DNA from: an uncultured Bdellovibrionales bacterium
GTDB lineage: Bacteria; Patescibacteriota; Minisyncoccia; Moranbacterales; GWC2-37-73
Direction of reading: 5' to 3'
Length of the DNA: 64,000 nucleotides
NCBI GenBank assembly: GCA_964609855.1
Contig: CAZSTB010000002.1
Span: forward strand, 15,541-79,540
Of the stretch, positions 330 through 53,728 are shown one piece after another. The notes under the pieces were generated by a model. That model was not told the DNA's origin and searched no databases. It worked only from the letters and a program-made list of their open reading frames with translations. The translations under genes were made by a program, and so were the position numbers. Numbering within the stretch: the first letter of the stretch is position 1; each line of letters begins with the position of its first letter.

Positions 330-1553
330 TTATTGGAAATCAGCTAGCACATTGCCTGAAATTTTTCTAAGACGCTTAACAACTTCTTTAAGTTTTTCAA
401 TTAAGATGTCCAACTCTTTTTTTGTTGTATATTTTCCCAGTGTAACTCTGAGGCTGCCGTGGGCTTGCTCATGCTTGAGTCCGAGCGAAAGTAATACATG
501 AGAAGGGTCTAATGCGCCAGAGGAGCAGGCAGAGCCTGTGGAGGCAGCGATTCCATCTAAATCTAGTGAAAGTATCAAACCTTCACCCTCAACATCGTCA
601 AAGCGGAAATTAGCGTTATTGGGAGAACGTTTTTCTTGGCTGCCGTTCAAGTATGATTTTGGAATTTCTTTAAGAACCCGCTTAATGAGATAATCCCGCA
701 ATTCCTCAATTTCTTTAATTTTTTTAGCGGTCGCAGGAGTCTTTATCAAGTTAATTGCCTCCCCTAAACCGACAATTGCTGGCACGCTATGTGTTCCTGC
801 TCGCAGTCTGTATTCTTGATCTCCGCCATCCTGAACCCTTTTTATAGGAGTGTTTTTCCTGACATACAAAAGGCCGATACCCTTAGGGCCATAAATCTTA
901 TGTGCCGACATGGAGAGTAAATCCACGCCTAAGTAATCAACATCGCAATTAAAATAATTTATCGCTTGGGTAGCATCGCTGTGAAAGATGATTTTCGGTT
1001 GTTTGTTTTGCAGACGTCCTTCATTGATGACTTTAAGCTCTTTTCCAATCTCTGCAACCGGCTGTAGCGTTCCAATCTCATTATTGACATACATAACACT
1101 TACCAAGATAGTGTTAGGTTTAATCGCGGCTTTAATGTCCTTTATTGAAATCAAACCGTTTTTATCTGGAGCAATAAATGTCACTTCGGCAAGACCATCT
1201 TTTTCAGCAAATTTGCATGCATCAAGAACACAGTGATGTTCAAATTTTGTTGTAATAATGTGTGGTTTTTCGCCTTCTTTTCTGGAAATTGAATAGAAAG
1301 ACCTAAGCGAGCCTTTTACAACGAGATTATTACTTTCTGTAGCGCCAGATGTAAAGATGATTTCAGATGGCGATGATCTGAAGAAAAGTGCCGCTTTAGC
1401 TCTAGCAGTATCAACAGCTTCCAGCGCATCTTGACCGAATCCATGAACACTCATAGCATTACCGAAATTCTCATTGAAAAACGGTAGCATTATTTCTAAA
1501 ACTTTTTTATCAACAGGTGTCGTTGCCGCGTAATCGAGGTAAATTTTTTTCAT
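330..1553 (-). CDS. iscS: cysteine desulfurase (IscS/NifS family, PLP-dependent)
   Basis: The 407-aa protein starts MKKIYLDYAATTPVD, has the class-V aminotransferase layout, the PLP-lysine region SMSAHKIYGPKG, and a C-terminal active-site Cys loop ASTGSACSSG. Confidence 0.9.
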   Translation of the reverse strand: MKKIYLDYAATTPVDKKVLEIMLPFFNENFGNAMSVHGFGQDALEAVDTARAKAALFFRSSPSEIIFTSGATESNNLVVKGSLRSFYSISRKEGEKPHIITTKFEHHCVLDACKFAEKDGLAEVTFIAPDKNGLISIKDIKAAIKPNTILVSVMYVNNEIGTLQPVAEIGKELKVINEGRLQNKQPKIIFHSDATQAINYFNCDVDYLGVDLLSMSAHKIYGPKGIGLLYVRKNTPIKRVQDGGDQEYRLRAGTHSVPAIVGLGEAINLIKTPATAKKIKEIEELRDYLIKRVLKEIPKSYLNGSQEKRSPNNANFRFDDVEGEGLILSLDLDGIAASTGSACSSGALDPSHVLLSLGLKHEQAHGSLRVTLGKYTTKKELDILIEKLKEVVKRLRKISGNVLADFQ

Positions 1554-1566
1554 CCTTATAATATTT

Positions 1567-1657
1567 TTGTCATTCTCGCGAAAGCGGGAATCCAGTTGTA
1601 ATTTAAATCGCTAGAAATAAATACGGGCTGGATCCCGGATCAAGTCCGGGATGACAA
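1567..1657. repeat. MITE/REP-like structured element A, bounded by TTGTCAT...ATGACAA and containing the hairpin ATCCCGGA-TCAAG-TCCGGGAT
   Basis: The 9-nt terminal inverted repeat and an 8-bp perfect stem are seen directly in the sequence. It sits between the Rrf2 regulator and iscS. Confidence 0.5.
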
Positions 1658-1668
1658 TGAAGAAGTTA

Positions 1669-2058
1669 TTATTTTACTAAATCGTTTAATTTAATTTTAT
1701 TTAAAGTCTTTTTTATCTGAAGTCCTAGTGTAATCCAAACAATACTAGAAGGACACTTGTGTTGACTTGCGCAAAACTTTCCAGCGCATCTCATTGGAGC
1801 AATCTCTCCATCAAGAATTTCAATTATTTCATCCACGGAAATTTTCTTCGGCTCTCGCACTAGAACATACCCGCCCATTTTACCCTTTGTACTTTCCACA
1901 ACATTTCCGTCTCTCAATTTTCCCATCAGACGTTCGAGATATTTTTGCGAAATCGCTTCCTCATTTGCAATCTCACCGATTGATTTCTGATTTGGATAAC
2001 ACTGAGCCAAGTTGGTCATTGCTTTGAGGCCATATTCGGCTTTTGTTGAAAATCGCAT
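1669..2058 (-). CDS. Rrf2-family transcriptional regulator (IscR-like)
   Basis: MRFSTKAEYGLKAM...GEIA is the Rrf2 N-terminal wHTH signature, and the gene sits at the head of an iscS-iscU operon. The ORF track extends to 2079, but the MRFSTK start at 2058 matches family N-termini. Of the three Cys typical of IscR, only CAGKFCASQHKC is present. Confidence 0.8.
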   Translation of the reverse strand: MRFSTKAEYGLKAMTNLAQCYPNQKSIGEIANEEAISQKYLERLMGKLRDGNVVESTKGKMGGYVLVREPKKISVDEIIEILDGEIAPMRCAGKFCASQHKCPSSIVWITLGLQIKKTLNKIKLNDLVK

Positions 2059-2072
2059 ATATATTTTGATGG

Positions 2073-2155
2073 TTGTCATCCTGAACTTGTTTCAGGATCT
2101 CGTTCAGGCTTGTTTGCCCCCTTCTGAATTCCAGATCTCTTGTACAGCATGACAA
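2073..2155. repeat. MITE/REP-like structured element B (TTGTCATCC...GCATGACAA) with hairpin ATCCTGAA-CTTGT-TTCAGGAT and nested GATCT/TTCAG inverted repeats
   Basis: Seen directly. It is the same family as element A but with compensatory stem changes, and it abuts the start codon region of the Rrf2 gene. Confidence 0.5.
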
Positions 2156-2295
2156 TGCTTATTAATCCCTACTTATTTAGTATGCTTTAAATATATCCGA
2201 TACTTAAATTGCTGTCAACTGTTGCTTGTTTTCTATTAAAATGGTAGTATTTTATGAAGTTGTTTGTTACCACCAACCAAAAGGAGAGTGATCTA

Positions 2296-2679
2296 ATGAA
2301 AGGCGATAATGAGGCATTTGAAACCCTAATGCAAGAAATGTTGAACAGAAAGTTCGTTATTTCGCGTGTTGATTCTTTTGTAGATGTATTCACTGCTTAC
2401 AATAAGAACTACTGGGAAAGAAATACACTTATCATAGTGCAAGTAAGCAGAGAGGGAAACATCCTAGTGCTCTTAAGCGGTACCTCCATCAGGAATCTCA
2501 GTCAAAAGCAAATAGATGCAGTGATGTGTGAATATATGGAACATTTCGACCTAAATGATGATGGCCAACTGCTCCATGTCATGCACCTTGATGCCAATGA
2601 TGCCCCTGATGCACGCGAGATTGATCGCGTAGCCAACATAACCACAAGAGCATACAGCCTTGCGGCAACAAACGGTTAA
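2296..2679 (+). CDS. hypothetical protein (no recognisable domain)
   Basis: The ORF has an AAGGAG Shine-Dalgarno about 8 nt upstream of the ATG at 2296; the track's upstream M at 2254 lacks an RBS. A hairpin terminator follows at about 2705-2740. Confidence 0.5.
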   Translation: MKGDNEAFETLMQEMLNRKFVISRVDSFVDVFTAYNKNYWERNTLIIVQVSREGNILVLLSGTSIRNLSQKQIDAVMCEYMEHFDLNDDGQLLHVMHLDANDAPDAREIDRVANITTRAYSLAATNG

Positions 2680-2740
2680 CACATAATACGGTGTTTTCAA
2701 AATCAAAAGGTCGGTAGCAATTTGCTCCTGGCCTTTTATC

Positions 2741-2768
2741 TTGCCCTCCATCCCCTATTTGTTATAAT
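2741..2768 (+). promoter_or_regulatory. sigma70-like promoter (TTGCCC-16-TGtTATAAT, extended -10) for the nuclease gene
   Basis: Read directly from the sequence; it lies about 60 nt upstream of the ATG at 2829. Confidence 0.4.
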
Positions 2769-2828
2769 GAATAATAAGTAAAAATAACCTAAAAGCTAGA
2801 GGCTAACTACTGAAAGCAAATTTAATCT

Positions 2829-3959
2829 ATGCGAATTTCATATTCAGCGCTCGAATCATTTAAAAATTGCTCCCTGAAATACAAATTTCAAAATATTGAT
2901 AAGATTAAAGAACCGAAATCCAAGGAAGCAGTTTTTGGAACACTTATTCATGCAACCTTAAAATTCATTCACGCGCCGCAACTTATTCCGCCAAAATTAG
3001 AGGAAGCTTTAGATTATTTCTCCAAAAACTGGAACAGTGATGTTTTTGAGGATGAGTTGGAAGACAGAAATGCTTTTGCACAGGGTGTGGCCATTATCCA
3101 GGATTATTATAAAAAAAATAACCCGTCAGATTTCACAATCGTGGATCTTGAGAGTCGTTTTCAGATAGAAATTGAGGACAAGGAAAGGCATTCTTCGCAT
3201 ATAATCTCGGGTATTGTCGATCGCATAGATAAAACTGAGGACGGATATGAGATTATCGATTATAAGACTACTAAGAAAATGCCTTCACAGGAAAAAGTGG
3301 ACGAGGATCTTCAGCTTTCCGTTTATCTGAATGCATTTTTAGCTCGCTATCCCAAAGAAGCTGACAAATTGGATAAAGTTACGGTAAGTCTATATTATCT
3401 CAAGCATGGCGTAAAATTGAGCTCTACAAGAACCTTAGCACAATTACAAAATGCCAAACAGCTTTTCTTGGACGTAATTGCGGAAATAGAAAAGGGAGAA
3501 TTTGTTCCAAATGTTACACCACTGTGTGATTGGTGCGGTTTTCAAAAATTTTGTCCGATGTGGAAGCATAAATTTAAAGATGAACGAAAAATTGATACCG
3601 AGGAGGTAAACGCCGCAATCAGCGACTACATCAACTTAAAGTCTGCCATCACATCCACGAAACTGCAGCTCATGCAGCTTCAGGAAAAAATTGCGAAATA
3701 TATGGAACAAGAGGGTGTAGAACGGGTCTTTTCTGAAGAAGGTATAATTGCGCAAACTTTGCGTAAAACCTATAAGTACGATGAGAAACAATTGAGAGAA
3801 ATTCTTGAGCCCATAGATAAATGGGAATCTGTCTTGAAAGTTGATGGCATAGCGCTTAAAGGAATTATGGGTGTGCTTTCGCCAGGTGTCAGACAAGATG
3901 TTGAAAGAGCAAGAGTTTTAGATAAACAGTCTAAGAGCTTGACTGTAAAGAAAAAATGA
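2829..3959 (+). CDS. PD-(D/E)XK nuclease, Cas4/RecB-like, with a C-terminal Cys cluster and a ~130-aa C-terminal extension
   Basis: It has the motif IVDRIDKTEDGYEIIDYKTTKK (D...EIIDYK core), followed by CDWCGFQKFCPMW (a three/four-Cys Fe-S-type cluster as in Cas4/AddB). An extra helical tail continues to residue 376. Confidence 0.75.
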   Translation: MRISYSALESFKNCSLKYKFQNIDKIKEPKSKEAVFGTLIHATLKFIHAPQLIPPKLEEALDYFSKNWNSDVFEDELEDRNAFAQGVAIIQDYYKKNNPSDFTIVDLESRFQIEIEDKERHSSHIISGIVDRIDKTEDGYEIIDYKTTKKMPSQEKVDEDLQLSVYLNAFLARYPKEADKLDKVTVSLYYLKHGVKLSSTRTLAQLQNAKQLFLDVIAEIEKGEFVPNVTPLCDWCGFQKFCPMWKHKFKDERKIDTEEVNAAISDYINLKSAITSTKLQLMQLQEKIAKYMEQEGVERVFSEEGIIAQTLRKTYKYDEKQLREILEPIDKWESVLKVDGIALKGIMGVLSPGVRQDVERARVLDKQSKSLTVKKK

Positions 3960-4011
3960 TTCAGATCAATTGATTCCTTAACAATGCAATATTATCTCAA
4001 GGGGGTGTACA

Positions 4012-4419
4012 ATGTCTAAGCGCATCAAAAAAAGAAAATGTAGGAGTATGACGTTTAGAAGGATAAGAACTGGCAAGAAAAGAACAGTAAAGCAACAGGA
4101 AATTATTCAAGAAAAAGACTACAGGTTTATTTATCGTAAAAAATATTACTTTAACTACCTTTTATTTCCATTGCTCATTGTTCTTATTTTTGTAGTTTCT
4201 GCCAACAAGACTTCATCTGGCTTTTTAACTTCCATGAAGCTTCTGGCACTTTCCGCAATGGGCTTTTCGATTTATATGAATTATCTGAATCGTGTAAGGA
4301 AAGATAAGGTTAACAATCTGATAAATTTCGAATTAGCGGCAACGATTACGACTTTTATAAGCTATTTCGGATTAGCCTGTAGCGCCATATTGATTGCCTG
4401 TATTATCATTTTTGCGTAA
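4012..4419 (+). CDS. small membrane protein with a highly basic N-terminus (KRIKKRKCRSMTFRRIRTGKKR) and 2-3 TM helices
   Basis: The ORF lies just downstream of the nuclease, and hydrophobic segments are evident. No family is recognised. Confidence 0.45.
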   Translation: MSKRIKKRKCRSMTFRRIRTGKKRTVKQQEIIQEKDYRFIYRKKYYFNYLLFPLLIVLIFVVSANKTSSGFLTSMKLLALSAMGFSIYMNYLNRVRKDKVNNLINFELAATITTFISYFGLACSAILIACIIIFA

Positions 4420-4541
4420 CAATTTTTTGAAGATTACTAAAATTAAGAGGTCTGATGATAAAGGTTTAATTTCCATTATTTGACCAAGCTAAATTAGATA
4501 AGAAAACTAAGAGGCACTCGCCACTAGTGAGCAACAAAAAA

Positions 4542-4566
4542 AGCTGATCAACTGATCAGCTTTTTA
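4542..4566. terminator. bidirectional rho-independent terminator (AGCTGATCA-AC-TGATCAGCT palindrome flanked by A-run and T-run)
   Basis: Perfect palindrome with poly-A on one side and poly-T on the other, lying between convergent genes. Confidence 0.6.
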
Positions 4567-5274
4567 AAATTTCACATATTTCTCCCAACATTCATACAGA
4601 GCCTTGGTGGCTCGCAGATCGCCCACGTTGTAGCGCGCAATATCTAAAAATCTTTGCTCTTTAAAAAGCATTCCTACATCATCTCCGGTAATCCCTTCAT
4701 TCTTTGGACTCTTAATACCAAATGCTCGCGACCAAAGATGCAGATTCCCTTTTCTTCTCACGCTCCCATAAAAAGTTAATTGATCAAGTAAATCAACATG
4801 TCTAGCATTTCGTGGCTGACTGGTGAGATAGCGATTTGCCATCAAATTCTTCGTAGGACGAATACCGCAAATCGCACTTCGCACCGTTAAAAATGGAACA
4901 TCAAATCCCCGTCCATTAAAGCTAATGAACTCGTCATATTTTTCAACCAGATTCCAGAATTGAACAAGCATTTCTTTTTCACCCAAAACTCGATACTTTA
5001 TATTGCCCTCATCGAAATTGGTAATATTGCCGTCAGGTGCCTGGAAATAAACGATGCCCTTATCTCTCTCAATATCGTAAACACCAATTGCCACAATTTG
5101 TCCTGTAAGCGGAGAAAAACCTAGACCGTTTTTTACTTCTGTTAGGCTCTTTTCATAGTCTTCTTCACCTTCAGATTCTTTTTTTATCCAACGGGTAAGA
5201 ACATCTTGAGTCGTCTGATCAAGCGTGTCAAAATCTTCCCCAATTGTTTCGATATCAAAAACTATCTTTCCCAT
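4564..5274 (-). CDS. DnaQ-fold 3'-5' exonuclease related to the PolB exonuclease domain (COG3298-like)
   Basis: The N-terminal FDIETIG acidic Exo-I motif, the Exo-II-like FNGRGFDVPFL region, and a size of about 236 aa all fit this family. Confidence 0.7.
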   Translation of the reverse strand: MGKIVFDIETIGEDFDTLDQTTQDVLTRWIKKESEGEEDYEKSLTEVKNGLGFSPLTGQIVAIGVYDIERDKGIVYFQAPDGNITNFDEGNIKYRVLGEKEMLVQFWNLVEKYDEFISFNGRGFDVPFLTVRSAICGIRPTKNLMANRYLTSQPRNARHVDLLDQLTFYGSVRRKGNLHLWSRAFGIKSPKNEGITGDDVGMLFKEQRFLDIARYNVGDLRATKALYECWEKYVKF

Positions 5275-5385: not shown

Positions 5386-5967
5386 ATGGTAAACCTAATG
5401 GAAGATATTAGAATGTGGTACTCATTTTTGAGCAATTCCCCGGTTTCAATCGTAGCAAAAAAATATTTTTTCGATGGCAAGAGCTACGTAGGCGGTGAGA
5501 TAGTTCGCGCCAGTCACGCAAAAGCTGAACATCATGATAGAAAAATTGAAGAAATTCTTGGTCTTACAGATTTTGATTTATTGCCGCTAGAACAAGCTAA
5601 TAAGATTCTTGCGGATGATATTCAAGTCATGCTAACTAAGAAGCCTATTAAATATAGGGTTGAAAGCGTTACGCATAAAAACGGTAAAACCGTTTGGAAA
5701 TCGGTATCAAAGTGGCCAATGATGCACGGAGATTTTCCCTACGGTGTGCTTGGTATTTCCATCGATATCACCGAGCAGGTAGAAACAGAAGAACGTTTAA
5801 AACTGCTCAATGTTCAGGTTGAAAAATTACTTTTCACGATCAAAGCACCTCTTGAAAAGTTAGATTTAATCCTAAGGAAATTACGGTGTCAAAAATTTGA
5901 ATTTGCAAAAAGGATTTCTGAAGCCGTTAATCTTATCAGGGCAATTGAAAAAAAGAATCAGGTTTAA
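5386..5967 (+). CDS. PAS-domain-like protein
   Basis: The central region (…GKTVWKSVSKWPM…GVLGISIDITEQ) resembles a PAS/PAC fold. There is no output domain. Confidence 0.4.
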   Translation: MVNLMEDIRMWYSFLSNSPVSIVAKKYFFDGKSYVGGEIVRASHAKAEHHDRKIEEILGLTDFDLLPLEQANKILADDIQVMLTKKPIKYRVESVTHKNGKTVWKSVSKWPMMHGDFPYGVLGISIDITEQVETEERLKLLNVQVEKLLFTIKAPLEKLDLILRKLRCQKFEFAKRISEAVNLIRAIEKKNQV

Positions 5968-24930: not shown

Positions 24931-26310
24931 TTACTTGTTTAAGAAATCGCTCATAACCAAATCCTGATTCAAAAGCGTTGAAAAATCGTTTCGGCTACCA
25001 TCAGCATTTATTACATGCACAGCAATCGGCACATCATTTAAACCTGCTTGTTTTTGGATCTTAAAGTCGTATTCGGAATTTTTAATATTTCTAGGTAAAG
25101 TGTAATTTATTTCAACAGTCTTACTGGAATTTATTGGAACTTTCACGATTGAACTGAAAGACTTTTTACCAAATTCGTTTGCAAACTTTGCGCCGTCAAA
25201 ATTCTTGGAATCCTTAAGCCAACTTCCCTCTGGCACGTAGACGCGAAGATAGGTCAGATAATCTCTGGTCATCCAATCTTTTTGGCGCGCCGTGTGATTG
25301 TAGGTTATTTTTAAATTAGCAGTCGGAATTTCTTTGGAATAATCAGCATTGTATTCAATTGAACGGTTAACGTAATAGTCGCTTTTAAAAGCTCCGAGAT
25401 TTGCATCCACAGTCATTAGGTAATCATTACTCCACTGGCTATCAACTTGTCCTGCCCACCCGGATTTTTGAACAATATTTTGCAAATATTCATCATTGAA
25501 ATATAGTTGAATATCTTTTTTATTCAAATCTTGTAAAGTTATTTCTGCTAATTTTATTTTTTCAGACGAGGAAAGCGCAAAAATTCTTTCCTGAATTACT
25601 CTCGCCAAATCAGCCATAATGGATTTTCTTTCCCCTCTGTCTATACCCTGATCTTCGAAAGCTTTTTCAACTTGATATTCCAAGGCAATAACCGCATTTT
25701 CACTGTCGTAAGTTCCGGGATATCCTTCAACTGTGACCGGTCCGGTAATTTCCAGCATTGAAGAAAGCACGTTTGTAGTTACCCCGATTACACCGTCAAA
25801 GCGCTCTTGACCATCGCCCATGTAATAAAATTCTTCAGCTTTTTTTGCATTTACCGCGAAATCAGGAGAAAAGTTTGAATCTCTTAATTTCCAGGATTTT
25901 ATTCCCAAGGTTTCTTTCATGGGGTATGGTGGAGTAACTGTGTCAGGAATTCTGGCATCAAAATTTGAAAGATCATGCGTCTGCGAAAGTGTGATTTTTC
26001 CGTCTTTCATTTTCACGATACCAAAAGCCCCGATAAATCCGCCGCCGGGACGAATTTCCATATTGTTTTGAAAAAGCACTAAAAAGGTTCTTTCAACTCC
26101 ATCTTCTTTCATGAAATAATCAGCCAATGTAGCGACTGCTCCGAATTCTTTTTTCTGCTGCTCATTAAATGGCAAAAAATTTACCGCATTACTTACAGCA
26201 TTTCCAATTCCGACTTTTTTCGTCTCCAAAAATAAATACCAACCGGTCAAAAGAATTGCGGAAACAGTCCAAAATGTAATCCAGAATTTTATAGAATATT
26301 TTTTAGCCAT
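24931..26310 (-). CDS. DUF4012-domain membrane-anchored protein
   Basis: N-terminal TM helix, then the hallmark EIRPGGGFIGAFG motif. Confidence 0.7.
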   Translation of the reverse strand: MAKKYSIKFWITFWTVSAILLTGWYLFLETKKVGIGNAVSNAVNFLPFNEQQKKEFGAVATLADYFMKEDGVERTFLVLFQNNMEIRPGGGFIGAFGIVKMKDGKITLSQTHDLSNFDARIPDTVTPPYPMKETLGIKSWKLRDSNFSPDFAVNAKKAEEFYYMGDGQERFDGVIGVTTNVLSSMLEITGPVTVEGYPGTYDSENAVIALEYQVEKAFEDQGIDRGERKSIMADLARVIQERIFALSSSEKIKLAEITLQDLNKKDIQLYFNDEYLQNIVQKSGWAGQVDSQWSNDYLMTVDANLGAFKSDYYVNRSIEYNADYSKEIPTANLKITYNHTARQKDWMTRDYLTYLRVYVPEGSWLKDSKNFDGAKFANEFGKKSFSSIVKVPINSSKTVEINYTLPRNIKNSEYDFKIQKQAGLNDVPIAVHVINADGSRNDFSTLLNQDLVMSDFLNK

Positions 26311-32535: not shown

Positions 32536-33606
32536 TTAATCCTTATGGCAGTTGGTGCAGACGTTCAGCTTGGCCGACGGGATGTTGAGATGGGCTTTGA
32601 TATCCTTGATATCCTTGTGCATCTCTTCAACCTGCGGCATCAGTTGACCGTTTTTACGCTTGGACTCTCCGAGTTTGTCATGGAGCGAGCGACCTTTTTT
32701 GCTTTCGCCCACGTTCTTGTCGATCCGCTTGACGTGTTTAAGCGTCTTACGGGTCTTTTGTTGTACAGACTTCTCGTCCGGCTCGTCTGACTTATCCGGC
32801 TTGCCGAGCGAGTCGAGCGTGATTCTTGCTTTTTGCTGCAAGGTGCGCTCCTCGACAGGCTCTTCAGGAGTCCACATGCCGACGGACCTTACCAGGTACT
32901 GGACGCCATTCCTGATCTCGACGATGCAGGGCTGGGTGCAGATGCCGCCTTTCCCATCGGGGCAAGGACCTCTGCGTTTGACGGTCTTTCTCGGGTACGT
33001 CGGCGGGGTGACTTTTCTGGGAGCTTCTCTGACGACCGGAGCCTCTCTCACAACAGGAACGTTTCCTACACAAGGGAAGATAACGGGTCTGCCGTCGATG
33101 CCGAGCTCATTTGCTGACGGCACATACGGCGCTCCGGGGCCAACGTACAGCAAGTACGTGCCGCCGGATTTTGCAATGCCGGGGTCAGTAATGCTTCTGG
33201 CGCATGCCAGGTTCTGACCGACCTGGATATTCCTGTCCGGAAGTCCCAGCCAAAGCGTATCAAACCAGTTTGCATCCTTGGCGAAGTTGACTCCACTCTG
33301 ACCGCCCCTGATCACTTCCATAGGGACATCCCAGTACTTCGTCAAACCTTCGGTTCTTGCAAACCTGGTCGGCAAGTTGGGGTCGCAACCCTCGCGCAGC
33401 TTGTCTGCGCAAAAATTGACGGCTTCATCTTGCCACATGTCTTCGGCGCACTGGTAGCGAACCGAATAGCGGACGAACTCCTGGTTGTTCACCAGGACGG
33501 GTTCAGCATTCACCACGGCTCCTTTTGCGAGCCAGAGCGGTTTTGCCTGAGCCGACGTTGACGCTAACATAAGCGCCGCGATTGCCAATAAGATCATCTT
33601 TTTCAT
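32536..33606 (-). CDS. GC-rich secreted Cys-containing protein of unknown function (ends …NVCTNCHKD)
   Basis: Signal peptide MKKMILLAIAALMLASTSAQA. Third codon positions are G/C-biased (about two-thirds G/C in a ~60-codon stretch tallied by hand). Confidence 0.6.
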   Translation of the reverse strand: MKKMILLAIAALMLASTSAQAKPLWLAKGAVVNAEPVLVNNQEFVRYSVRYQCAEDMWQDEAVNFCADKLREGCDPNLPTRFARTEGLTKYWDVPMEVIRGGQSGVNFAKDANWFDTLWLGLPDRNIQVGQNLACARSITDPGIAKSGGTYLLYVGPGAPYVPSANELGIDGRPVIFPCVGNVPVVREAPVVREAPRKVTPPTYPRKTVKRRGPCPDGKGGICTQPCIVEIRNGVQYLVRSVGMWTPEEPVEERTLQQKARITLDSLGKPDKSDEPDEKSVQQKTRKTLKHVKRIDKNVGESKKGRSLHDKLGESKRKNGQLMPQVEEMHKDIKDIKAHLNIPSAKLNVCTNCHKD

Positions 33607-33620
33607 CTGTGGTCTCCTTT

Positions 33621-34778
33621 TCAGTGTTCCATCTGGTCGATGGTTTGACTGGAAATTTGGATGCCGGCAGGTTTGGCACTTTGCTTACCCACCGGAGTTT
33701 CTTTTTTCTGAATCGTTTTGGCGCGCTTTTCAGCGTACCAAGTGGTGATGTCAGGAGTGGCCTCATAGGCAGCAATGATGCCGCCAAAAGGCCCAAGACC
33801 AGTGAACAGATTGGCCGTAAGACCAAGGCTGAACCTGTTCTTGTATTTCACCCTTATCGATGGCGCAAAACCGGTGAAGATGTCTCCGTCTAAGAAACCG
33901 ATACTCGCACCTGCTCCGGAAATAACCTTGTAATCCTTGTTAAGCTTATGTTCCCAGAATATTCCCGGGCCCACGAAGCTGTCATGGTCAAAGATACTTC
34001 CGTCCACCTGCAGCGTCAACCTGTTCTTATGGTTCAGGATATGATCGAACTGCACGTGCGGCGTGAGCATGACGCCATCTTTGCGGTTCATGTCGAACCT
34101 CCAGAGAATTCCCATGTCTGCCTCAAACGAGTTGCGCAGACCAAGACCTCTGTAGTATCCGACATGCGGACCAAGAGCATAGTAGCCCCAATCCGCCCCG
34201 CTGGGAGCGGCGCCGTAATCACCTCGGAGGCTTGCGCCGATACCGAAGTTTTCTGCCTTCTCATATCTTGTGAACCACTGGAGCCATTTCAGGTTTCCCC
34301 AAACGCCCCAGGTGTCGTGTTCGAAGTTCTTCCAGGCTCCGGTCCAGAACGAGACCTCAGGAAAACTTCCCCAAGTCCTTTGCTCTGGATTTTCGAATTC
34401 CGGAAGCGCTTCAGAAGCAGCTGGCGCGGGTTGAACTTCCGCTGGAGGTTCCTCTTTTAACAGAGGAGCTTCGAGCGGTGCAGCAGAAACAGTAGGCGCC
34501 TGCTCCTTAACTTCAGGAACAATCGTCGGCTCCGTCACTTGCTGCTCAACCACGGCAGGCGCTTGTTCCTTAACTTCAGGAATAATCACCGGCTCAGCTA
34601 CTGGCGTCTCAACCACTGCGGGTTGTTGAGGGATACTTTTGCCTCGCGCATATTCTGCGAGAGCAGCGTCCCTTCTTTTTGCTCTGACAGACTGCAGATC
34701 CTTACACGGATCTTCAGCTGCCGCCACGACACTGACCGAAGCCAGCATCAACAATATCGCCATGAGTTTTTTCATCAT
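33621..34778 (-). CDS. GC-rich secreted protein: signal peptide, Pro/Glu-rich tandem repeats (PEVKEQAP x2), then a W/G/Y-rich beta-rich domain
   Basis: MMKKLMAILLMLASVSVVAAA is the signal peptide. The domain has alternating aromatic/glycine patterning. The stop overlaps the downstream gene's start (ATGA). Confidence 0.6.
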   Translation of the reverse strand: MMKKLMAILLMLASVSVVAAAEDPCKDLQSVRAKRRDAALAEYARGKSIPQQPAVVETPVAEPVIIPEVKEQAPAVVEQQVTEPTIVPEVKEQAPTVSAAPLEAPLLKEEPPAEVQPAPAASEALPEFENPEQRTWGSFPEVSFWTGAWKNFEHDTWGVWGNLKWLQWFTRYEKAENFGIGASLRGDYGAAPSGADWGYYALGPHVGYYRGLGLRNSFEADMGILWRFDMNRKDGVMLTPHVQFDHILNHKNRLTLQVDGSIFDHDSFVGPGIFWEHKLNKDYKVISGAGASIGFLDGDIFTGFAPSIRVKYKNRFSLGLTANLFTGLGPFGGIIAAYEATPDITTWYAEKRAKTIQKKETPVGKQSAKPAGIQISSQTIDQMEH

Positions 34779-35770
34779 TTTCTCCTTTTCGCAACTGCTT
34801 GCGCAGCGGGCGTTGGTTTTGTTTCGGTCTTTGCTGGTTCCACCGCGGGTGCGGGTTTTTCGATTTCTCTCTTGGTTTGCAGGGCAGCAATTTCAGCATC
34901 TTTCTTTGCCAGCTCCTCGTTCAATTCGCCGATAAGCGTCTGACGAAGTTGACTGACAATTTCAAACATTGCCGAAGCTTCTGCTCCTGTAATTTCCGAA
35001 TAGAAATCCCAACCTTTTGGCGGAGACTTCACTGTCTCCCAAAGCGTGATGGAAGCCTTTGCAACCATTTCCACCGGGTTAAGTGAGATCACCATCCTGT
35101 TTCGCAGCACAAAGCGTTGGAAACCAGTGTAGCCAGGGTTGATTCTGGCGATTCTCTTCATGTCATCCTCTCCAAGCGGAGAATAGACTTCGCCGTAATC
35201 AGTCTTGTAACGGTTCCAGGACTTAACCTGGGAATAAAACCCCTTTACAAGATGCCGAGTGCCAACAGCAACTCCATATTTTTCAACCAGCTCTGCACGA
35301 TATTTCTTTTCATCATTGAATCGAATGCGATCGATCGGCACTAATTTTCCGCTTGACCAAGTGCAGTCTGTACGCGACGAAAGCGGAATGAACTTTGCGG
35401 ACTTGAAGTCCGAAAATTTTCCATCAATTATCACGAAAGACATGAACTCGCCGCTACGGTAGTTGCCAGCCAACACAAACTGTGCGAAAGCCTCCTCCCC
35501 TTTGGAATTCACACTCCATCCGGGAAAAGAAATTCTGCCAGCGCGCATCTCTCCGCCAATCTGAGAATCAGATATGGGTGCGTCAATGATTGTTACCTCG
35601 CCGCTTTCGATAGCCGGCGTAACCCGAATTCCAACTGCGAGTTCGGGGTAGGTTGTGAGCTGCAAGGGCTTCCCGAAATGGAGCGGCGCTTCTCTGATAC
35701 CCTCAGAGTGGGCGCAACCGAAAATCGGAAGAGCAAAACAAATTGCCAGAACTGCGAACATTTTTCTCAT
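34775..35770 (-). CDS. GC-rich lipoprotein with a C-terminal coiled-coil/Ala-Pro-Lys tail
   Basis: The signal peptide with IFGC lipobox-like cysteine is MRKMFAVLAICFALPIFGCA. The tail is …LNEELAKKDAEIAALQTKREIEKPAPAVEPAK…. Confidence 0.55.
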   Translation of the reverse strand: MRKMFAVLAICFALPIFGCAHSEGIREAPLHFGKPLQLTTYPELAVGIRVTPAIESGEVTIIDAPISDSQIGGEMRAGRISFPGWSVNSKGEEAFAQFVLAGNYRSGEFMSFVIIDGKFSDFKSAKFIPLSSRTDCTWSSGKLVPIDRIRFNDEKKYRAELVEKYGVAVGTRHLVKGFYSQVKSWNRYKTDYGEVYSPLGEDDMKRIARINPGYTGFQRFVLRNRMVISLNPVEMVAKASITLWETVKSPPKGWDFYSEITGAEASAMFEIVSQLRQTLIGELNEELAKKDAEIAALQTKREIEKPAPAVEPAKTETKPTPAAQAVAKRRK

Positions 35771-35902
35771 GGCTAATCTCCTGTATTTTTCAATCCTTTT
35801 AAGTTGTAAAGGTCCAACTCAGCTCAAAACGATTTCGAGCTTACCAGGAGACTCTGATATTACAATCCAGAGTCCCATAATCTACTCAAAATACAATGCT
35901 AG

Positions 35903-36655
35903 TTATTCGTAAATTTTAAAATCGCCCATATTTTCATTACTTTGAAAGTTACCCGCGGTTTCCATTCTTGAGAGTGGTGAGGAATTGATTGGAGACTCAA
36001 CATGCTCAGCCTTGGTTAAGTGAGCGAAAATTGATTTCCTTCGACGACTTTCACCATAAACCAAATACAGCACACTAAGCATGCTACCCAATATGAATCC
36101 TCCGATTGTTGTTGCTAAAATATTTGCAATAGATGGATTCTTTTCTACAACGGGTCCGGATAATACTTTCACATCGATATTCTGACCATCGCCGCGAAAG
36201 AGACTGTTTTTTGTCGTTAGCACTTCCACAACCGACTGCGAAATTGAAATCGCTTTTCGCTGATCATTTTCAAAAATTTCTATTCCAATGATTCCTAAAT
36301 CAGGATTGCGGGAAACTTCGACGATTTTGCTCCATTGTTTGAGTTTTTCTTTTTTATCAAATGGTAGAAATTCCACATTAACTTTTCCAGTCTTTATAAC
36401 CTCATCAATGAAAAGTTCACTGTATACAGCTTCATTCAATATTTTTCCGATATACTCTGCCGATTTGGAAAGCGTATAAAAATCTTGTGCCCCACCTTGA
36501 TTTTGCACAATCAGATAATCAGTACTCACCTTGTAATTTTTCTCCTTTGCTAAAAGCGCAAAGAATGAAAAAGCTGCAATCAGCAAACCGAATAATAAAA
36601 TTATTCCTGCTTTTTTGCTTATTAAGGCCAATATTCGCTTATATTCCATATGCAT
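35903..36655 (-). CDS. polysaccharide co-polymerase (Wzz/chain-length-determinant-like) protein
   Basis: N-terminal TM, ~180-aa periplasmic domain, and a C-terminal TM (TTIGGFILGSMLSVLYLVYG). Composition is AT-rich, like the host genome. Confidence 0.55.
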   Translation of the reverse strand: MHMEYKRILALISKKAGIILLFGLLIAAFSFFALLAKEKNYKVSTDYLIVQNQGGAQDFYTLSKSAEYIGKILNEAVYSELFIDEVIKTGKVNVEFLPFDKKEKLKQWSKIVEVSRNPDLGIIGIEIFENDQRKAISISQSVVEVLTTKNSLFRGDGQNIDVKVLSGPVVEKNPSIANILATTIGGFILGSMLSVLYLVYGESRRRKSIFAHLTKAEHVESPINSSPLSRMETAGNFQSNENMGDFKIYE

Positions 36656-36732
36656 TGATTCATTAAATGATAACTTACTATCTTAGCAGAAAAATCAAAT
36701 TTTGTCAATAGCAGGGCAACTTTAAAATTAAA

Positions 36733-36766
36733 TATAAAAAAAGGCGGGGAGAAATTTCTCCCCGCT
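36733..36766 (-). terminator. rho-independent terminator (GGCGGGGAGA-AATT-TCTCCCCGC + T-run on minus)
   Basis: Seen directly, 3' of the lipoprotein gene. Confidence 0.6.
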
Positions 36767-36777
36767 CATCGCCACTA

Positions 36778-37725
36778 TTAGTAGCGGATAAGTCCGTCGA
36801 CGCTGACGTTTTGCTGTACGCCGTTTACGAAAAACTCACACACGGTTGGATCCGTGTTGAATGAAACGAAAGTTCCGTCCGGCCTCACCAGATAAGGCAT
36901 GCCGGCTCCCGAAGCTTGCGTAGCATTCGCTAGAACCGTTGTCGGCAGAACTAGCGCTGTTACGACGCCAGCTGCAGGATACCAGGAACCGTTATCATTC
37001 CAGGCAATCCTGTACCCAGCGATAACGTTGCCCTGAGCATCCAACACGGTTTCACCCAGGATGCCACTGACGAGATTCAGAAGCTTTCCTGCTGCAATTG
37101 CTGGTGTGATGTCGATTTGTCGCGTGAGCGTGTTGATACTCACTCGGGTTTTCACGATTACAACAGGTGCTGCAGGGTCTATGATAATTGGCGCAGTTCC
37201 CACTGGCTGGACGGCTGCATATAGCAAACCGTCAGCTTTTCTTTCTGCTACCATGCCAGCACCTGCTTTGATTACGAGCCAGTTGGGGTCCGTAATCTGC
37301 GCGAGTTCCGTGCCATCGTCCAACACATAGCTGAAGTTGCCGCCGGACGCGCCAATGGGCTGACCCGCGATTTCCACTGCGAGCGTACTCGGGTCAAATT
37401 GCAGGGCGATTCCCTTGGTGCAGTCATCCCTGTGAAATCCCACCGCGCGGTCGTTCCAGTAGATTTTGTTGACCCTCCCTTTTTCTACAAACACCTCTGC
37501 CACGCCGTTTGAGGCATGAACGAGATACTCGCGAACAATCGCCGGCTTGAAGACGGTTTTATCCGCGTCCACAAGAAGTAATGCCTTTGCTGCGTCCGTT
37601 TCTCCGATGCTCGGTGTGGTTACTGAACTGACTGAACTGGACTTTTCGTCGCCGCCTCCGCCGCCGCATCCCATCAGTGAGACTGCCAAAAATGTCGCTA
37701 CTGCGCCTAAAATTAGCTTTTTCAT
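36778..37725 (-). CDS. GC-rich lipoprotein (lipobox LMGC followed by a Gly-rich linker)
   Basis: MKKLILGAVATFLAVSLMGCGGGGG is the signal peptide and lipobox. Third codon positions are G/C-biased. Confidence 0.6.
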   Translation of the reverse strand: MKKLILGAVATFLAVSLMGCGGGGGDEKSSSVSSVTTPSIGETDAAKALLLVDADKTVFKPAIVREYLVHASNGVAEVFVEKGRVNKIYWNDRAVGFHRDDCTKGIALQFDPSTLAVEIAGQPIGASGGNFSYVLDDGTELAQITDPNWLVIKAGAGMVAERKADGLLYAAVQPVGTAPIIIDPAAPVVIVKTRVSINTLTRQIDITPAIAAGKLLNLVSGILGETVLDAQGNVIAGYRIAWNDNGSWYPAAGVVTALVLPTTVLANATQASGAGMPYLVRPDGTFVSFNTDPTVCEFFVNGVQQNVSVDGLIRY

Positions 37726-53600: not shown

Positions 53601-53728
53601 TTTTCCTCATAGCAGTGACTTTCTGAATTCTCCAGCCCAATAGCATTAATTTTTTTCCAATCTAAATCGCCCGCTTCATTCACGGGCCTCACATCAAACA
53701 TTTGAGGAATAATTTTATTTTTTGACAT
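50687..53728 (-). CDS. large DUF4012 protein with a cytoplasmic ~210-aa E/R/Q/K-rich single-alpha-helix-like region, one TM helix and an extracytoplasmic DUF4012 domain
   Basis: The SEMRATGGFIGSYG hallmark is present. Residues ~95-305 are highly charged heptad-less repeats (…EQQQLENQKIMRANKQRDELLLAERRKLQQLREQERKLLEKQEKE…). The TM helix is LAVFLFVAMVASLGVGGISFA. Confidence 0.7.
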   Translation of the reverse strand: MSKNKIIPQMFDVRPVNEAGDLDWKKINAIGLENSESHCYEENFCEADHSGKISTFAADYDLPENERMPIMPEDIFDINDDDYFQPAAQSNYRHIQEAQLLNDFRKRGEAREMQRRQRDDEHKLLIENQKRVLEQQQLENQKIMRANKQRDELLLAERRKLQQLREQERKLLEKQEKELELVRRAQGERLQLEREQFEQSAFLQRQEKEQQRKLLIERQQRIFEQQQLESERIQMENREKEAALIAEKNQQLALREQQIRKEALLEQERLRIAATENARLRRENEAYVLAEREQREQERILAEKYAKAINADAQKKPEKSLLFSKRKKNGCKRTEKLDNFFTWKDMFSGAGFGFRFDLQRSLAVFLFVAMVASLGVGGISFASKGFGLKGRVLGVSEDGLSNLNAAVADIANQNFEQSSQKFDLAYANFSDGFQQVNDMGGVLLDAARYVPFASKISSGKNAVEAGKHFAAAGKALSDVAKVSAQLKNPVADAELSFLQVFQDVDKNVAVAKIELDYAQENIDKVAIDDLPEDKRDKFLLLKQQLPEIRMMLGLFSSNNHIFVDLLGGNGPRKYLFLFQNNSEMRATGGFIGSYGLLDIANGHVKKFFIDGIFNPDGQLKDRIVPPAPIQKISANWSMHDSNWFADFPMSAKKAIYFYEKTGGPTADGVITITPTVMEKLLKITGPIEMSEYAVTLDSENFLELTQHEVEVDYDKQENKPKKILSDLAPLILEKLLNNKNLDTISRTADAFLSGLQEKHILFYSQNAELQQLISEQGWSGEVIPASKDYLSVINANINGFKTDAVIEERIEHAAKIQEDGSVIDEVKITRKHNGGNSPYEWFNKVNANYMRVYLPRGSKLLEATGQTREINNQPLDYDALGFKRDDDVVRLEKTEIIDEETGTHIYDENEKTVFANWTYVSPGESMTITYKYLLPFKIFNVSIGEKQQIDSYSLAVQKQSGSFGSAFSSVVEYPSDYQVKWSFPQNANSGNFQAKLETELKTDKFLGLVFEKN

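What the first reader, a model, noticed from the sequence alone, without database searches (positions are those of the whole stretch)
2296..5274. Cas4-like Fe-S PD-(D/E)XK nuclease, basic mini-membrane protein and PolB-exo-like 3'-5' exonuclease as a compact DNA-processing module
A PD-(D/E)XK/Cas4-type nuclease carries a Cys cluster and an unusual ~130-aa helical C-terminal extension. It is followed by a tiny membrane protein with a poly-basic N-terminus. A DnaQ-fold exonuclease of the PolB-exo-related family is convergent, sharing a bidirectional terminator. A domainless 127-aa protein lies upstream.

None of these is a canonical repair gene (no recB/addA partner, no cas genes). Nuclease-plus-exonuclease pairs of this kind recur in defence islands. 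The module is also bracketed on one side by repeat element B.
Basis: partly seen in the sequence, partly recalled or inferred. Interest (0 to 1): 0.55.

Follow-up and report, generated by a model that had tools for sequence, protein, structure and literature searches.

The report
Housekeeping Cas4-like nuclease beside repair exonuclease
The four genes exist as described, but they are not a conserved defence module: they are a core DNA-repair-type nuclease of a Moranbacteria (candidate phyla radiation) genome, an exonuclease that is its neighbour only in close relatives, and two lineage-specific small genes.

Summary
All four ORFs and the hairpin terminator are real. The 376-aa protein is a Cas4/AddB-type PD-(D/E)XK nuclease. 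It has exactly four cysteines in the iron-staple pattern (C14, C233-x2-C236-x5-C242) and the D131/D144-x-K146/Q162-x3-Y166 motifs. Its C-terminal 125 residues are not an odd helical tail. They form an alpha/beta domain that matches Pfam DUF7376 and phage Gp157-like proteins. Phage 'Cas4 family exonucleases' of about 400 aa appear to share the same two-domain architecture.

The nuclease is highly conserved across Moranbacteria (55-87% identity). It sits in a housekeeping block: NifU-IscS-Rrf2, then the nuclease, then amino-acid kinase, L27 and CTP synthase. The PolB-exo-like exonuclease is its convergent neighbour in only 10 of 82 species-level loci, all from the closest clade. Elsewhere it lies next to PIF1 helicases, UvrD-nuclease fusions, XseA or unrelated genes.

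The 127-aa and 135-aa proteins are near-orphans that occupy variable intergenic slots. No defence genes, cas genes or flanking repeat were found.

Verdict: ordinary repair/recombination genes with clade-limited synteny. The defence-island reading is not supported. A looser functional link between this exonuclease family and PD-(D/E)XK nucleases or helicases is plausible.

The parts
330..2079 (-). Context: IscS-like cysteine desulfurase (330-1553) and Rrf2/IscR-like regulator (1669-2079), divergent from the nuclease side
   Evidence: Aminotran_5 at 3e-78 and Rrf2 at 1.7e-31. Rrf2 lies divergent within 1.5 kb of the nuclease in 39 of 82 loci, and IscS within 3 kb in 45 of 82.
2166..2220 (.). Rrf2 promoter/operator region: palindrome CTACTTATTTAGTATG (2169-2184) and a TTGACA -35 box on the minus strand
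   Evidence: The same palindrome plus TGTCAA recurs in most of the 15 compact Rrf2-nuclease intergenic regions examined. The window copy is at 2169-2184. A promoter-like site at 2218->2190 scores 11/12. The operator role is inferred.
2296..2679 (+). 127-aa protein with no known domain (an alternative start at 2254 gives 141 aa); a lineage-specific insertion between the Rrf2 operator and the nuclease promoter
   Evidence: No Pfam or NCBIfam family. It matches only itself among 5.8 billion proteins. One weak homologue occupies the same position in L015, E=1.3e-5 in a small database. It is absent from the other related loci.
2741..2768 (+). Promoter-like site for the nuclease gene (TTGCCC-16-TATAAT with an upstream TG)
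   Evidence: 10/12, extended -10. This is a consensus match only.
2829..3557 (+). Nuclease gene, residues 1-243: Cas4/AddB-type PD-(D/E)XK domain with a 4-Cys iron staple
   Evidence: PDDEXK_1 at 3.6e-37. Invariant C14, E108, D131, D144, K146, Q162, Y166 and C242; near-invariant C233 and C236. AF2 pLDDT 93.5. Foldseek top hits are the AdnA nuclease domain at 2e-11, ACE1 at 5e-11, AddB, Dna2 and Cas4.
3579..3959 (+). Nuclease gene, residues 251-376 plus stop codon: DUF7376 / phage Gp157-like alpha/beta domain
   Evidence: DUF7376 at 31.9 bits when scanned alone. Of 38 family members, 30 hit DUF7376, 14 hit Mu_Gam-Sipho_Gp157-TOTE and 2 hit Sipho_Gp157. Domain model pLDDT 91.3. No PDB match. BFVD matches include stand-alone phage proteins of 120-160 aa and the C-termini of phage RecB-like exonucleases.
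4012..4419 (+). 135-aa membrane protein with a poly-basic N-terminus; a variable insertion between the convergent nuclease and exonuclease genes
   Evidence: 19 K/R in residues 1-45 and hydrophobic segments. No family match. Divergent homologues occur only in L008 and L009, in the same slot. In 13 other loci that carry the pair, the nuclease-exonuclease gap is 29-2131 bp with differing content.
4538..4565 (.). Bidirectional intrinsic-terminator-like hairpin (12-bp stem, 4-nt loop, A5/T5 flanks) next to the exonuclease stop codon
   Evidence: dG -19.3 and -18.8 kcal/mol; no shuffle out of 200 folded as well.
4564..5274 (-). 236-aa PolB-exo-like DEDDy 3'-5' exonuclease (PF10108/PF13482)
   Evidence: DNA_pol_B_exo2 at 2.9e-17 and RNase_H_2 at 2.1e-12. 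Exo I/II/III motifs are intact. Weak sequence match to archaeal PolB exonuclease domains. 7358 homologues found.

Best explanation
The region is an ordinary stretch of a Candidatus Moranbacteria (Patescibacteria/CPR) chromosome, not a dedicated system.

(1) The nuclease. The 376-aa protein is a conserved stand-alone ('solo') Cas4-family nuclease. Its PD-(D/E)XK domain is stapled by a [4Fe-4S] cluster. By analogy with AdnA, AddB and ACE1, it most likely threads single-stranded DNA through a narrow channel to the D-DxK metal site and trims or cleaves ssDNA tails during recombination or repair. Its C-terminal DUF7376/Gp157-like domain most likely mediates DNA-end binding or self-association; this step is inferred. 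The same domain occurs as a stand-alone protein in phages. Database-annotated Gp157 genes lie in phage recombination modules, and the domain appears to be fused in phage 'Cas4 family exonucleases'.

(2) The exonuclease. The 236-aa protein is an active-looking DEDDy 3'-5' exonuclease of the PolB-exo-like family. It probably trims 3' ends in repair. In relatives its gene lies next to PIF1 helicases, UvrD-nuclease fusions or XseA.

(3) Their relationship. The two genes are convergent, and the hairpin lies between them. Their adjacency is synteny confined to one sub-clade.

(4) The small genes. The 127-aa and 135-aa genes are fast-evolving, lineage-specific insertions into the two intergenic slots that flank the nuclease.

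Shown: domains, motifs, fold, conservation and synteny statistics. Inferred: substrates, polarity, the role of the C-terminal domain, and any cooperation between the two enzymes.
For: Identity of the nuclease.

C-terminal domain. Phage counterparts: Gordonia phage 'Cas4 family exonuclease', 400 aa, aligning to query residues 3-326 and located among replication/recombination genes.

Core-gene status:
- 120 listed homologues at 71-100% identity, annotated 'RecB family exonuclease' or 'PD-(D/E)XK nuclease family protein' in Moranbacteria.
- At least 500 relatives among GTDB species genomes.
- 5160 clusters at 50% identity with E<=1e-3; many of the best 150 listed align over the full length.

Housekeeping synteny. 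Rrf2 is present in 39 loci, IscS in 45 and amino-acid kinase in 40, of 82. No helicase or defence gene is among the conserved neighbours. Other window genes are metabolic.

Exonuclease adjacency and contexts:
- Adjacent in 10 of 82 loci; nine of the ten have nuclease identity >=74%, and the tenth (L027) has 68%.
- Other contexts.
- Among 46 informative metagenomic exonuclease loci, 11 have the solo nuclease, 5 a UvrD-PDDEXK fusion and 2 a PIF1 helicase plus PDDEXK nuclease.
- About 11 of all 80 loci have a PIF1-like helicase directly downstream of the exonuclease.

Orphan status of the small ORFs.

Mechanistic analogy (iron staple, ssDNA-threading channel): PMC12094033.
Against: - No biochemical data exist for this family, so polarity and substrate are unknown.
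- Within the closest clade the nuclease-exonuclease pair is retained in 9 of 13 informative species loci. About 39 of the top 120 nuclease clusters share a contig length with an exonuclease cluster (an indirect proxy). A real functional coupling therefore cannot be excluded.
- PMC12094033 cites work in which solo-Cas4 enzymes interfere with plasmid DNA. A defence contribution is therefore not impossible.
- Whole genomes could not be scanned, so 'core gene' rests on the number and conservation of hits rather than on a presence/absence matrix.
Confidence: 0.7

Rival explanations
1. The nuclease and the exonuclease form a dedicated two-enzyme DNA-end-resection pair. The Fe-S PD-(D/E)XK nuclease handles 5' strands and the DEDDy exonuclease handles 3' strands. 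In this clade the pair would stand in for a missing AddAB/RecBCD.
For: - The convergent pair is retained in 9 of 13 informative close loci and in L087, L091 and L092.
- Relatives of the exonuclease are linked in operons to other PD-(D/E)XK-containing genes. UvrD-PDDEXK fusions lie from a few bp (1 bp in L088) to about 3 kb downstream. An exo-PIF1-PDDEXK operon occurs in L138 and L171.
- PF13482 exonuclease domains are known to be fused to Cas4-like DUF83 domains in COG2251 (PMC3985635).
- No gene in the window is long enough to encode an AddA/RecB-type helicase.
Against: - The genes are convergent and not co-transcribed.
- Adjacency is absent in 72 of 82 loci, while the nuclease stays fixed at the isc locus.
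- The exonuclease also occurs without any nuclease nearby: 28 of 46 informative loci, plus the P0354 locus and L089.
- Adjacency in close relatives can simply reflect shared ancestry.
Confidence: 0.2
2. The four genes are an anti-phage or anti-plasmid defence cassette: a solo-Cas4 effector, an exonuclease and a membrane component, located in a defence island.
For: - Weak PADLOC hits of the nuclease to Cas4 and DruK models.
- Solo-Cas4 enzymes have been reported to interfere with plasmids (cited in PMC12094033).
- The small flanking genes are variable.
- In one relative (L138) an exo-PIF1-PDDEXK operon follows an Eco57I-type restriction-modification gene.
Against: - The neighbours are isc genes, a kinase, ribosomal protein L27 and CTP synthase. 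This arrangement is conserved across 55-87% identity, which is core-genome behaviour and not that of a variable island.
- There are no PADLOC hits for the exonuclease, the membrane protein, the 127-aa protein or the PAS protein.
- No cas genes or CRISPR-like repeats were found.
- The nuclease is too conserved and too widespread for a typical defence gene.
Confidence: 0.06
3. The nuclease is a recently acquired phage or prophage gene (an MGE-Cas4), and the surrounding small ORFs are prophage remnants.
For: - The closest annotated counterparts, which appear to share the full two-domain architecture, are phage proteins.
- PHROG phrog_69 'exonuclease' hits at 5.5e-30.
- The flanking ORFs are orphans.
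Against: - The chromosomal position is stable across at least 45 species-level genomes.
- GC content matches its surroundings, 0.36-0.38.
- There are no integrase, structural or other phage genes nearby.
- Identity to phage homologues is only about 23%.
Confidence: 0.03

Closest known systems
Phage 'Cas4 family exonuclease' / 'RecB-like exonuclease' of about 390-400 aa (e.g. Gordonia phage Sticker17 gp41, Tsukamurella phage TIN4, Arthrobacter phage KellEzio)
   Same: These proteins are about the same length. The Gordonia protein aligns over residues 3-326, covering the nuclease domain and the start of the C-terminal domain. The C-terminal domain model matches the C-terminal part of the TIN4 and KellEzio proteins. 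Together this suggests the same two-domain architecture of a PD-(D/E)XK nuclease followed by a Gp157/DUF7376-like domain.
   Different: Sequence identity is only about 23%. The phage genes lie in phage replication/recombination modules. Here the gene is a chromosomal, syntenic core gene of a CPR bacterium.
Nuclease domains of AdnA/AdnB and AddB (helicase-nuclease DSB-resection complexes)
   Same: These are the best structural matches: 6ppr_A at E=2e-11 and AddB 4ceh_B at 6e-8. They share the D...DxK and QxxxY motifs and the 1+3 cysteine iron staple.
   Different: The window protein has no helicase domain and no adjacent helicase gene. NCBIfam addB/addA scores are 30-32 bits against cutoffs of 486-861. 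It also carries an extra C-terminal domain.
[quoted passage not shown]
   Same: A stand-alone Fe-S Cas4-family nuclease of similar core size. Foldseek E=5e-11, with TM 0.63-0.69 normalised to the target. It is an ssDNA endonuclease with a threading channel.
   Different: No Argonaute gene lies nearby. ACE1 (about 270 aa) lacks the Gp157-like domain.
CRISPR-associated Cas4 (TIGR00372 / PF01930)
   Same: Same superfamily, iron staple and catalytic motifs. Foldseek hits to SSO0001 and to type I-C Cas4.
   Different: TIGR00372 scores 33.9 bits against a cutoff of 65. No cas1/cas2 genes or CRISPR array are in the window. The protein is larger and has an added domain.
Sipho_Gp157 (PF05565) / DUF7376 (PF24091) / Mu Gam-Gp157-like TOTE domain (PF22709)
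   Same: The C-terminal 125 residues match these profiles and share a fold with stand-alone phage proteins, including one annotated 'Siphovirus Gp157' and SPO1 gp34.36. In Firmicutes phages, Gp157 genes occupy the same slot as Mu Gam homologues, upstream of erf-ssb recombination modules (PMC8093625).
   Different: Here the domain is fused to a nuclease. No solved structure or biochemical function was found in the searches made here. The Gam-related match covers only the long helix.
PolB-exonuclease-like stand-alone exonucleases (PF10108/COG3298; PF13482/COG3359, YprB-like)
   Same: The 236-aa protein passes both Pfam cutoffs. It has all three Exo motifs. It aligns weakly to archaeal PolB exonuclease domains.
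   Different: It has no polymerase domain and no TPR extension. The family is predicted, but not shown, to be a 3'-5' exonuclease (PMC3985635).

Membership tests
Cas4 family in the broad sense (Fe-S PD-(D/E)XK nucleases, PF12705/PF01930) | RecB-type catalytic motifs D...(D/E)xK and QhxxY | tested here: met
   D131, D144-Y-K146 and Q162...Y166 are invariant in 65 homologues. PDDEXK_1 at E=3.6e-37.
Cas4 family in the broad sense (Fe-S PD-(D/E)XK nucleases, PF12705/PF01930) | One N-terminal and three C-terminal cysteines (C...CX2CX5C iron staple) | tested here: met
   Cysteines occur only at 14, 233, 236 and 242. They are invariant or nearly invariant. Actual cluster binding cannot be tested here.
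Cas4 family in the broad sense (Fe-S PD-(D/E)XK nucleases, PF12705/PF01930) | Fold similarity to solved Cas4/AddB/AdnA nuclease domains | tested here: met
   AF2 model with pLDDT 93.5. Foldseek probability 1.00 to 6ppr_A, 9iab_A, 4ceh_B, 8d3l_J and 4ic1.
Cas4 family in the broad sense (Fe-S PD-(D/E)XK nucleases, PF12705/PF01930) | Metal-dependent ssDNA nuclease activity | not testable with these tools
   Requires purified protein.
CRISPR-associated Cas4 in the strict sense | Passes the equivalog model TIGR00372 | tested here: not met
   33.9 bits against a cutoff of 65.
CRISPR-associated Cas4 in the strict sense | Encoded with cas1/cas2 next to a CRISPR array | tested here: not met
   No array-like repeats in the 64-kb window. 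Neighbours in 82 loci are isc genes, a kinase and a DUF2062 protein.
AddB / AdnA-type helicase-nuclease subunit | N-terminal (pseudo)helicase domains and a paired addA/adnB gene | tested here: not met
   The protein is 376 aa with no helicase domain. addB/addA models score far below cutoff. No helicase is among the conserved neighbours.
Known anti-phage defence systems (PADLOC-DB 2.0) | Component proteins match system models and co-occur with the other components | tested here: not met
   Only weak Cas4 (E about 5e-9) and DruK (1.5e-3) hits for the nuclease. Nothing for the four other proteins.
DUF7376 / Sipho_Gp157-like domain | Profile match above the Pfam gathering score | tested here: met
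   31.9 bits against a cutoff of 27 for residues 250-376 scanned alone. 26.5 bits in the full-length protein. 30 of 38 family members match.
PolB-exo-like 3'-5' exonuclease (PF10108 / PF13482) | Profile match above cutoff and intact DEDD(y) Exo I-III motifs | tested here: met
   63.5 bits (cutoff 24) and 47.7 bits (cutoff 22). D7/E9, D125 and Y215/D219 lie within the FDIET, FNGRGFD and YNVGD motifs.
Conserved gene module (operon-like unit of the four genes) | Same gene set and order retained across related genomes | tested here: not met
   The exonuclease is adjacent in 10 of 82 loci. The membrane protein has homologues in 2 loci and the 127-aa protein in 1.

The most novel reading that the evidence does not exclude
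The solo Cas4-family nuclease fused to a phage Gp157-like domain is a phage-derived, domesticated core end-resection enzyme of Moranbacteria. It would replace the AddB/RecB nuclease function in these reduced genomes. It would act in trans with the PolB-exo-like exonuclease and with PIF1- or UvrD-type helicases. Its expression would be tied to Fe-S cluster supply through the conserved divergent Rrf2/IscR operator that it shares with the isc operon.
Probability: 0.15. Interest if true: 0.45.

Novelty: new member of a known kind. Interest (0 to 1): 0.2.

Why it matters
The finding matters mainly as a negative result. A nuclease next to an exonuclease, with small unknown genes between them, looks like a defence cassette when read from sequence alone. 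Comparative context shows it is core-genome synteny.

Two modest positive points follow.
- A widespread family that joins a Cas4-type nuclease to a Gp157/DUF7376-like domain has, in the searches made here, no solved structure for the C-terminal domain and no experimental characterisation. It is shared by CPR bacteria and apparently by phages, and it is a reasonable candidate for the poorly understood recombination and repair toolkit of reduced-genome Patescibacteria.
- The PolB-exo-like exonuclease family is recurrently linked to PIF1 helicases, UvrD-nuclease fusions and XseA, which points to a repair role.

Tried and rejected
- Rfam scan of the whole window: no hits.
- Foldseek of the isolated C-terminal domain against the PDB: no significant match, best E=0.58.
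- Profile search of that domain against PDB sequences: only coiled-coil noise.
- The first attempt at a genome scan with the 65-sequence alignment failed because no stretch was conserved enough. It was redone with 16 sequences.
- Cluster look-up meant to give taxon names for distant homologues returned almost no names.
- Literature search for DUF7376/PF24091: no papers.
- Sequence search of the exonuclease against the PDB gave spurious top hits to designed Kelch-like repeat proteins. Only the weak PolB matches are meaningful.
- Weak Pfam hits of the 127-aa protein (Type_ISP_C at E=0.012) and of the membrane protein (12TM_1 and others) were dismissed because they fall below cutoff.
- A Ku/Mu-Gam homology claim for the C-terminal domain was considered and not adopted, because the PF22709 match covers only the long helix.


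Full report
**Observation.** Gene calls on three independent metagenome contigs from the same aquifer sample series give the same four genes.

The 376-aa protein (2829-3959, +) matches PDDEXK_1 over residues 2-243 (E=3.6e-37). It has exactly four cysteines, at 14, 233, 236 and 242. In an alignment of 65 homologues reaching down to 25% identity, C14, G37, H41, E108, D131, D144, K146, Q162, Y166 and C242 are invariant, and C233 and C236 are nearly so. These positions correspond to the RecB/Cas4 motifs and the C...CX2CX5C 'iron staple'.

The 236-aa protein (4564-5274, -) passes DNA_pol_B_exo2 and RNase_H_2. It carries FDIET, FNGRGFD and YNVGD, which are the Exo I-III motifs of DEDDy exonucleases.

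The 135-aa protein has 19 Lys/Arg in its first 45 residues, followed by hydrophobic segments. A 12-bp hairpin at 4538-4565, flanked by A5/T5, folds well on both strands (z = -6.5 and -4.8). It abuts the exonuclease stop codon.

Two details did not hold. No repeat element brackets the region. The C-terminal extension is neither purely helical nor uncatalogued.

**The C-terminal domain.** AlphaFold2 on a 65-sequence alignment gave a confident model (pLDDT 93.5). Residues 257-295 form a long helix, followed by a beta-hairpin, three short helices and a final strand. The isolated domain models equally well (pLDDT 91.3).

Scanned alone, it passes the Pfam cutoff for DUF7376 (31.9 bits against 27). 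Of 38 family members, 30 hit DUF7376, 14 hit the 'Mu Gam/Sipho_Gp157-like' TOTE domain and 2 hit Sipho_Gp157 itself.

No solved structure resembles it. In BFVD it matches many stand-alone phage proteins of 120-160 aa, including one annotated 'Siphovirus Gp157' and SPO1 gp34.36. It also matches the C-terminal parts of ~390-aa phage 'PD-(D/E)XK / RecB-like exonucleases'.

A tblastn search of phage genomes finds 400-aa 'Cas4 family exonucleases' of Gordonia phages. They align to residues 3-326 and sit among replication and recombination genes. In Firmicutes phages, Gp157 genes occupy the same slot as Mu Gam homologues, upstream of erf-ssb modules (PMC8093625). The architecture therefore appears to be a known but uncharacterised kind.

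**The nuclease domain.** Foldseek against the PDB ranks the AdnA nuclease domain first (6ppr_A, 2e-11). Next come the Argonaute-associated Cas4 enzymes ACE1 (9iab/9iac), then AddB, Dna2, RecB, type I-C Cas4, SSO0001, Exo5 and MGME1. A profile search of PDB sequences agrees.

In AdnA and ACE1 the D-DxK site lies in a channel too narrow for duplex DNA, through which ssDNA is threaded. ACE1 alone is an ssDNA endonuclease (PMC12094033). I infer the same mode of action here: cleavage of ssDNA tails that some other activity has unwound.

Strict memberships fail. The Cas4 equivalog TIGR00372 scores 33.9 bits against 65, and the AddA/AddB models score about 30 bits against cutoffs of 486-861. There is no helicase domain.

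**Conservation and context.** The protein is highly conserved. The 120 listed relatives are 71-100% identical, mostly of the same length, and named 'RecB family exonuclease' or 'PD-(D/E)XK nuclease family protein' from Candidatus Moranbacteria and Parcubacteria. An exhaustive profile-free search found 5160 clusters at 50% identity with E<=1e-3, and many of the best 150 listed align over the full length. A scan of one genome per GTDB species found at least 500 relatives.

I compared 82 non-redundant loci carrying the gene.
- An Rrf2 regulator lies divergently within 1.5 kb in 39 loci.
- IscS lies within 3 kb in 45 loci.
- NifU lies just beyond in 42 loci.
- An amino-acid kinase lies downstream in 40 loci.
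- A DUF2062 membrane protein lies immediately downstream in 33 loci.
- GluRS, a C39 peptidase, ribosomal protein L27 and CTP synthase lie further out.

None of the conserved neighbours is a helicase, cas gene or defence gene. The rest of the window encodes ClpB, LepA, MurJ, SHMT, RecJ, sugar-nucleotide enzymes and glycosyltransferases. PADLOC models hit only the nuclease, and weakly (Cas4 about 5e-9, DruK 1.5e-3). This is core-genome synteny and not a defence island.

**The exonuclease as a neighbour.** It lies convergent and within 2.2 kb of the nuclease in only 10 of the 82 loci. Nine of these have nuclease identity >=74%; the tenth has 68%. Among the closest clade, 9 of 13 informative loci keep the pair.

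The space between the two stop codons ranges from 29 to 2131 bp. It is empty in about five loci and holds different small ORFs in the others.

The exonuclease family is itself large and conserved (7358 hits) and occurs in other settings:
- directly upstream of a 995-aa UvrD-helicase/PDDEXK_1 fusion (L088);
- among unrelated genes (L089);
- next to DUF2062 and the kinase, but with glycosyltransferases where the nuclease and isc genes would be.

I also examined 80 metagenomic loci of exonuclease relatives, of which 46 have at least 2.5 kb downstream.
- 11 of the 46 have the solo nuclease in convergent orientation.
- 5 have a UvrD-PDDEXK fusion downstream.
- 2 have a tight exo-PIF1-PDDEXK_1 operon.
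- 28 have no such nuclease neighbour.
- About 11 of all 80 loci have a PIF1-like helicase 5-33 bp downstream, and 3 have an HRDC-XseA gene.

The exonuclease is therefore best read as a repair exonuclease that associates loosely and variably with helicases and nucleases. PF13482 domains are also known to be fused to Cas4-like DUF83 domains in COG2251 (PMC3985635). This keeps a functional link with PD-(D/E)XK nucleases plausible. It does not make the window's convergent pair a unit.

**The two small genes.** The 127-aa protein matches only itself among 5.8 billion proteins. It has one weak positional homologue, in L015, with E=1.3e-5 in a small database.

The 135-aa membrane protein has divergent homologues only in L008 and L009, in the same slot.

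In many relatives the Rrf2-nuclease spacer is only 100-200 bp. In most of the 15 such spacers examined it contains a conserved palindrome (CTACTAATTTAGTATG) and a TGTCAA box, and several also carry a TGCTATAAT-like box. The window keeps the palindrome at 2169-2184. It has a separate promoter-like site at 2741-2768 in front of the nuclease, with the 127-aa ORF inserted between the two. Both small genes are therefore lineage-specific insertions into the intergenic slots, not module components.

**Verdict.**
- The domain calls are right.
- The most likely picture is of two independently conserved DNA repair/recombination enzymes: a solo Cas4-family Fe-S nuclease with a phage-type Gp157-like domain, and a PolB-exo-like 3'-5' exonuclease. 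They are neighbours in one Moranbacteria sub-clade.
- A dedicated resection pair (about 0.2) and a defence role (about 0.06) remain possible but are less likely.
- Interest is low. The residual value lies in the uncharacterised nuclease-Gp157 family and in the recurrent exonuclease-helicase linkage.

Noticed in passing
L093-L172 (e.g. L138:6001-8832; L104:6001-8198; L093:6001-9700; L105:6001-7447): Relatives of the 236-aa exonuclease are often followed, 5-33 bp downstream and on the same strand, by a PIF1-like helicase (about 11 of 80 loci). In L138 and L171 a 282-aa Fe-S PDDEXK_1 nuclease follows the helicase. Other loci have a UvrD-PDDEXK fusion (5) or an HRDC-XseA gene (3) downstream. In L138 an Eco57I-type restriction-modification gene precedes the operon.
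   Followed up: partly
window 2169-2184, and the Rrf2-nuclease spacers of 15 loci including L005, L030, L048, L055, L064, L070 and L082: A conserved palindrome CTACTAATTTAGTATG, next to a TGTCAA (-35) box, lies between the Rrf2/IscR-like gene and the Fe-S nuclease gene in most of these spacers. It is probably the Rrf2 operator. Its position hints that nuclease expression could be coupled to the isc Fe-S assembly operon.
   Followed up: partly
P0128 (1297 aa), P0149, P0155, P0181, P0202, P0169, P0175, P0206, P0207, P0228: Some metagenomic relatives of the nuclease consist of two to five tandem PDDEXK_1/Cas4-like domains in one polypeptide, with no other Pfam domain.
   Followed up: partly
window 32536-37725: This block has higher G+C (0.43-0.50, against 0.34-0.40 in most of the window). 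It holds five consecutive minus-strand ORFs (356, 385, 331, 250 and 315 aa) with no Pfam match, and a 63-nt tandem duplication at 34489-34614.
   Followed up: no
window 1-64000: No Rfam family reaches its gathering score anywhere in the 64 kb, so there are no tRNAs, rRNAs, riboswitches or other known RNAs. GC skew is negative in most 2-kb windows, and most large ORFs beyond 9 kb lie on the minus strand.
   Followed up: no
window 60244-61962 (-): A canonical RecJ 5'-3' ssDNA exonuclease (DHH, DHHA1 and RecJ_OB domains) is encoded about 55 kb from the nuclease. The genome therefore has at least one standard resection enzyme.
   Followed up: no
window 24931-26310 (-) and 50687-53728 (-): Two DUF4012 proteins (459 and 1013 aa) lie among glycosyltransferase, Wzy-like and MurJ genes. 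This looks like a large cell-envelope polysaccharide region.
   Followed up: no
window 5386-5967 (+): A 193-aa stand-alone PAS-domain protein occupies the position where relatives have a 360-370-aa PAS plus HATPase_c histidine kinase (L004, L006, L091). It may be a truncated or split sensor kinase.
   Followed up: no
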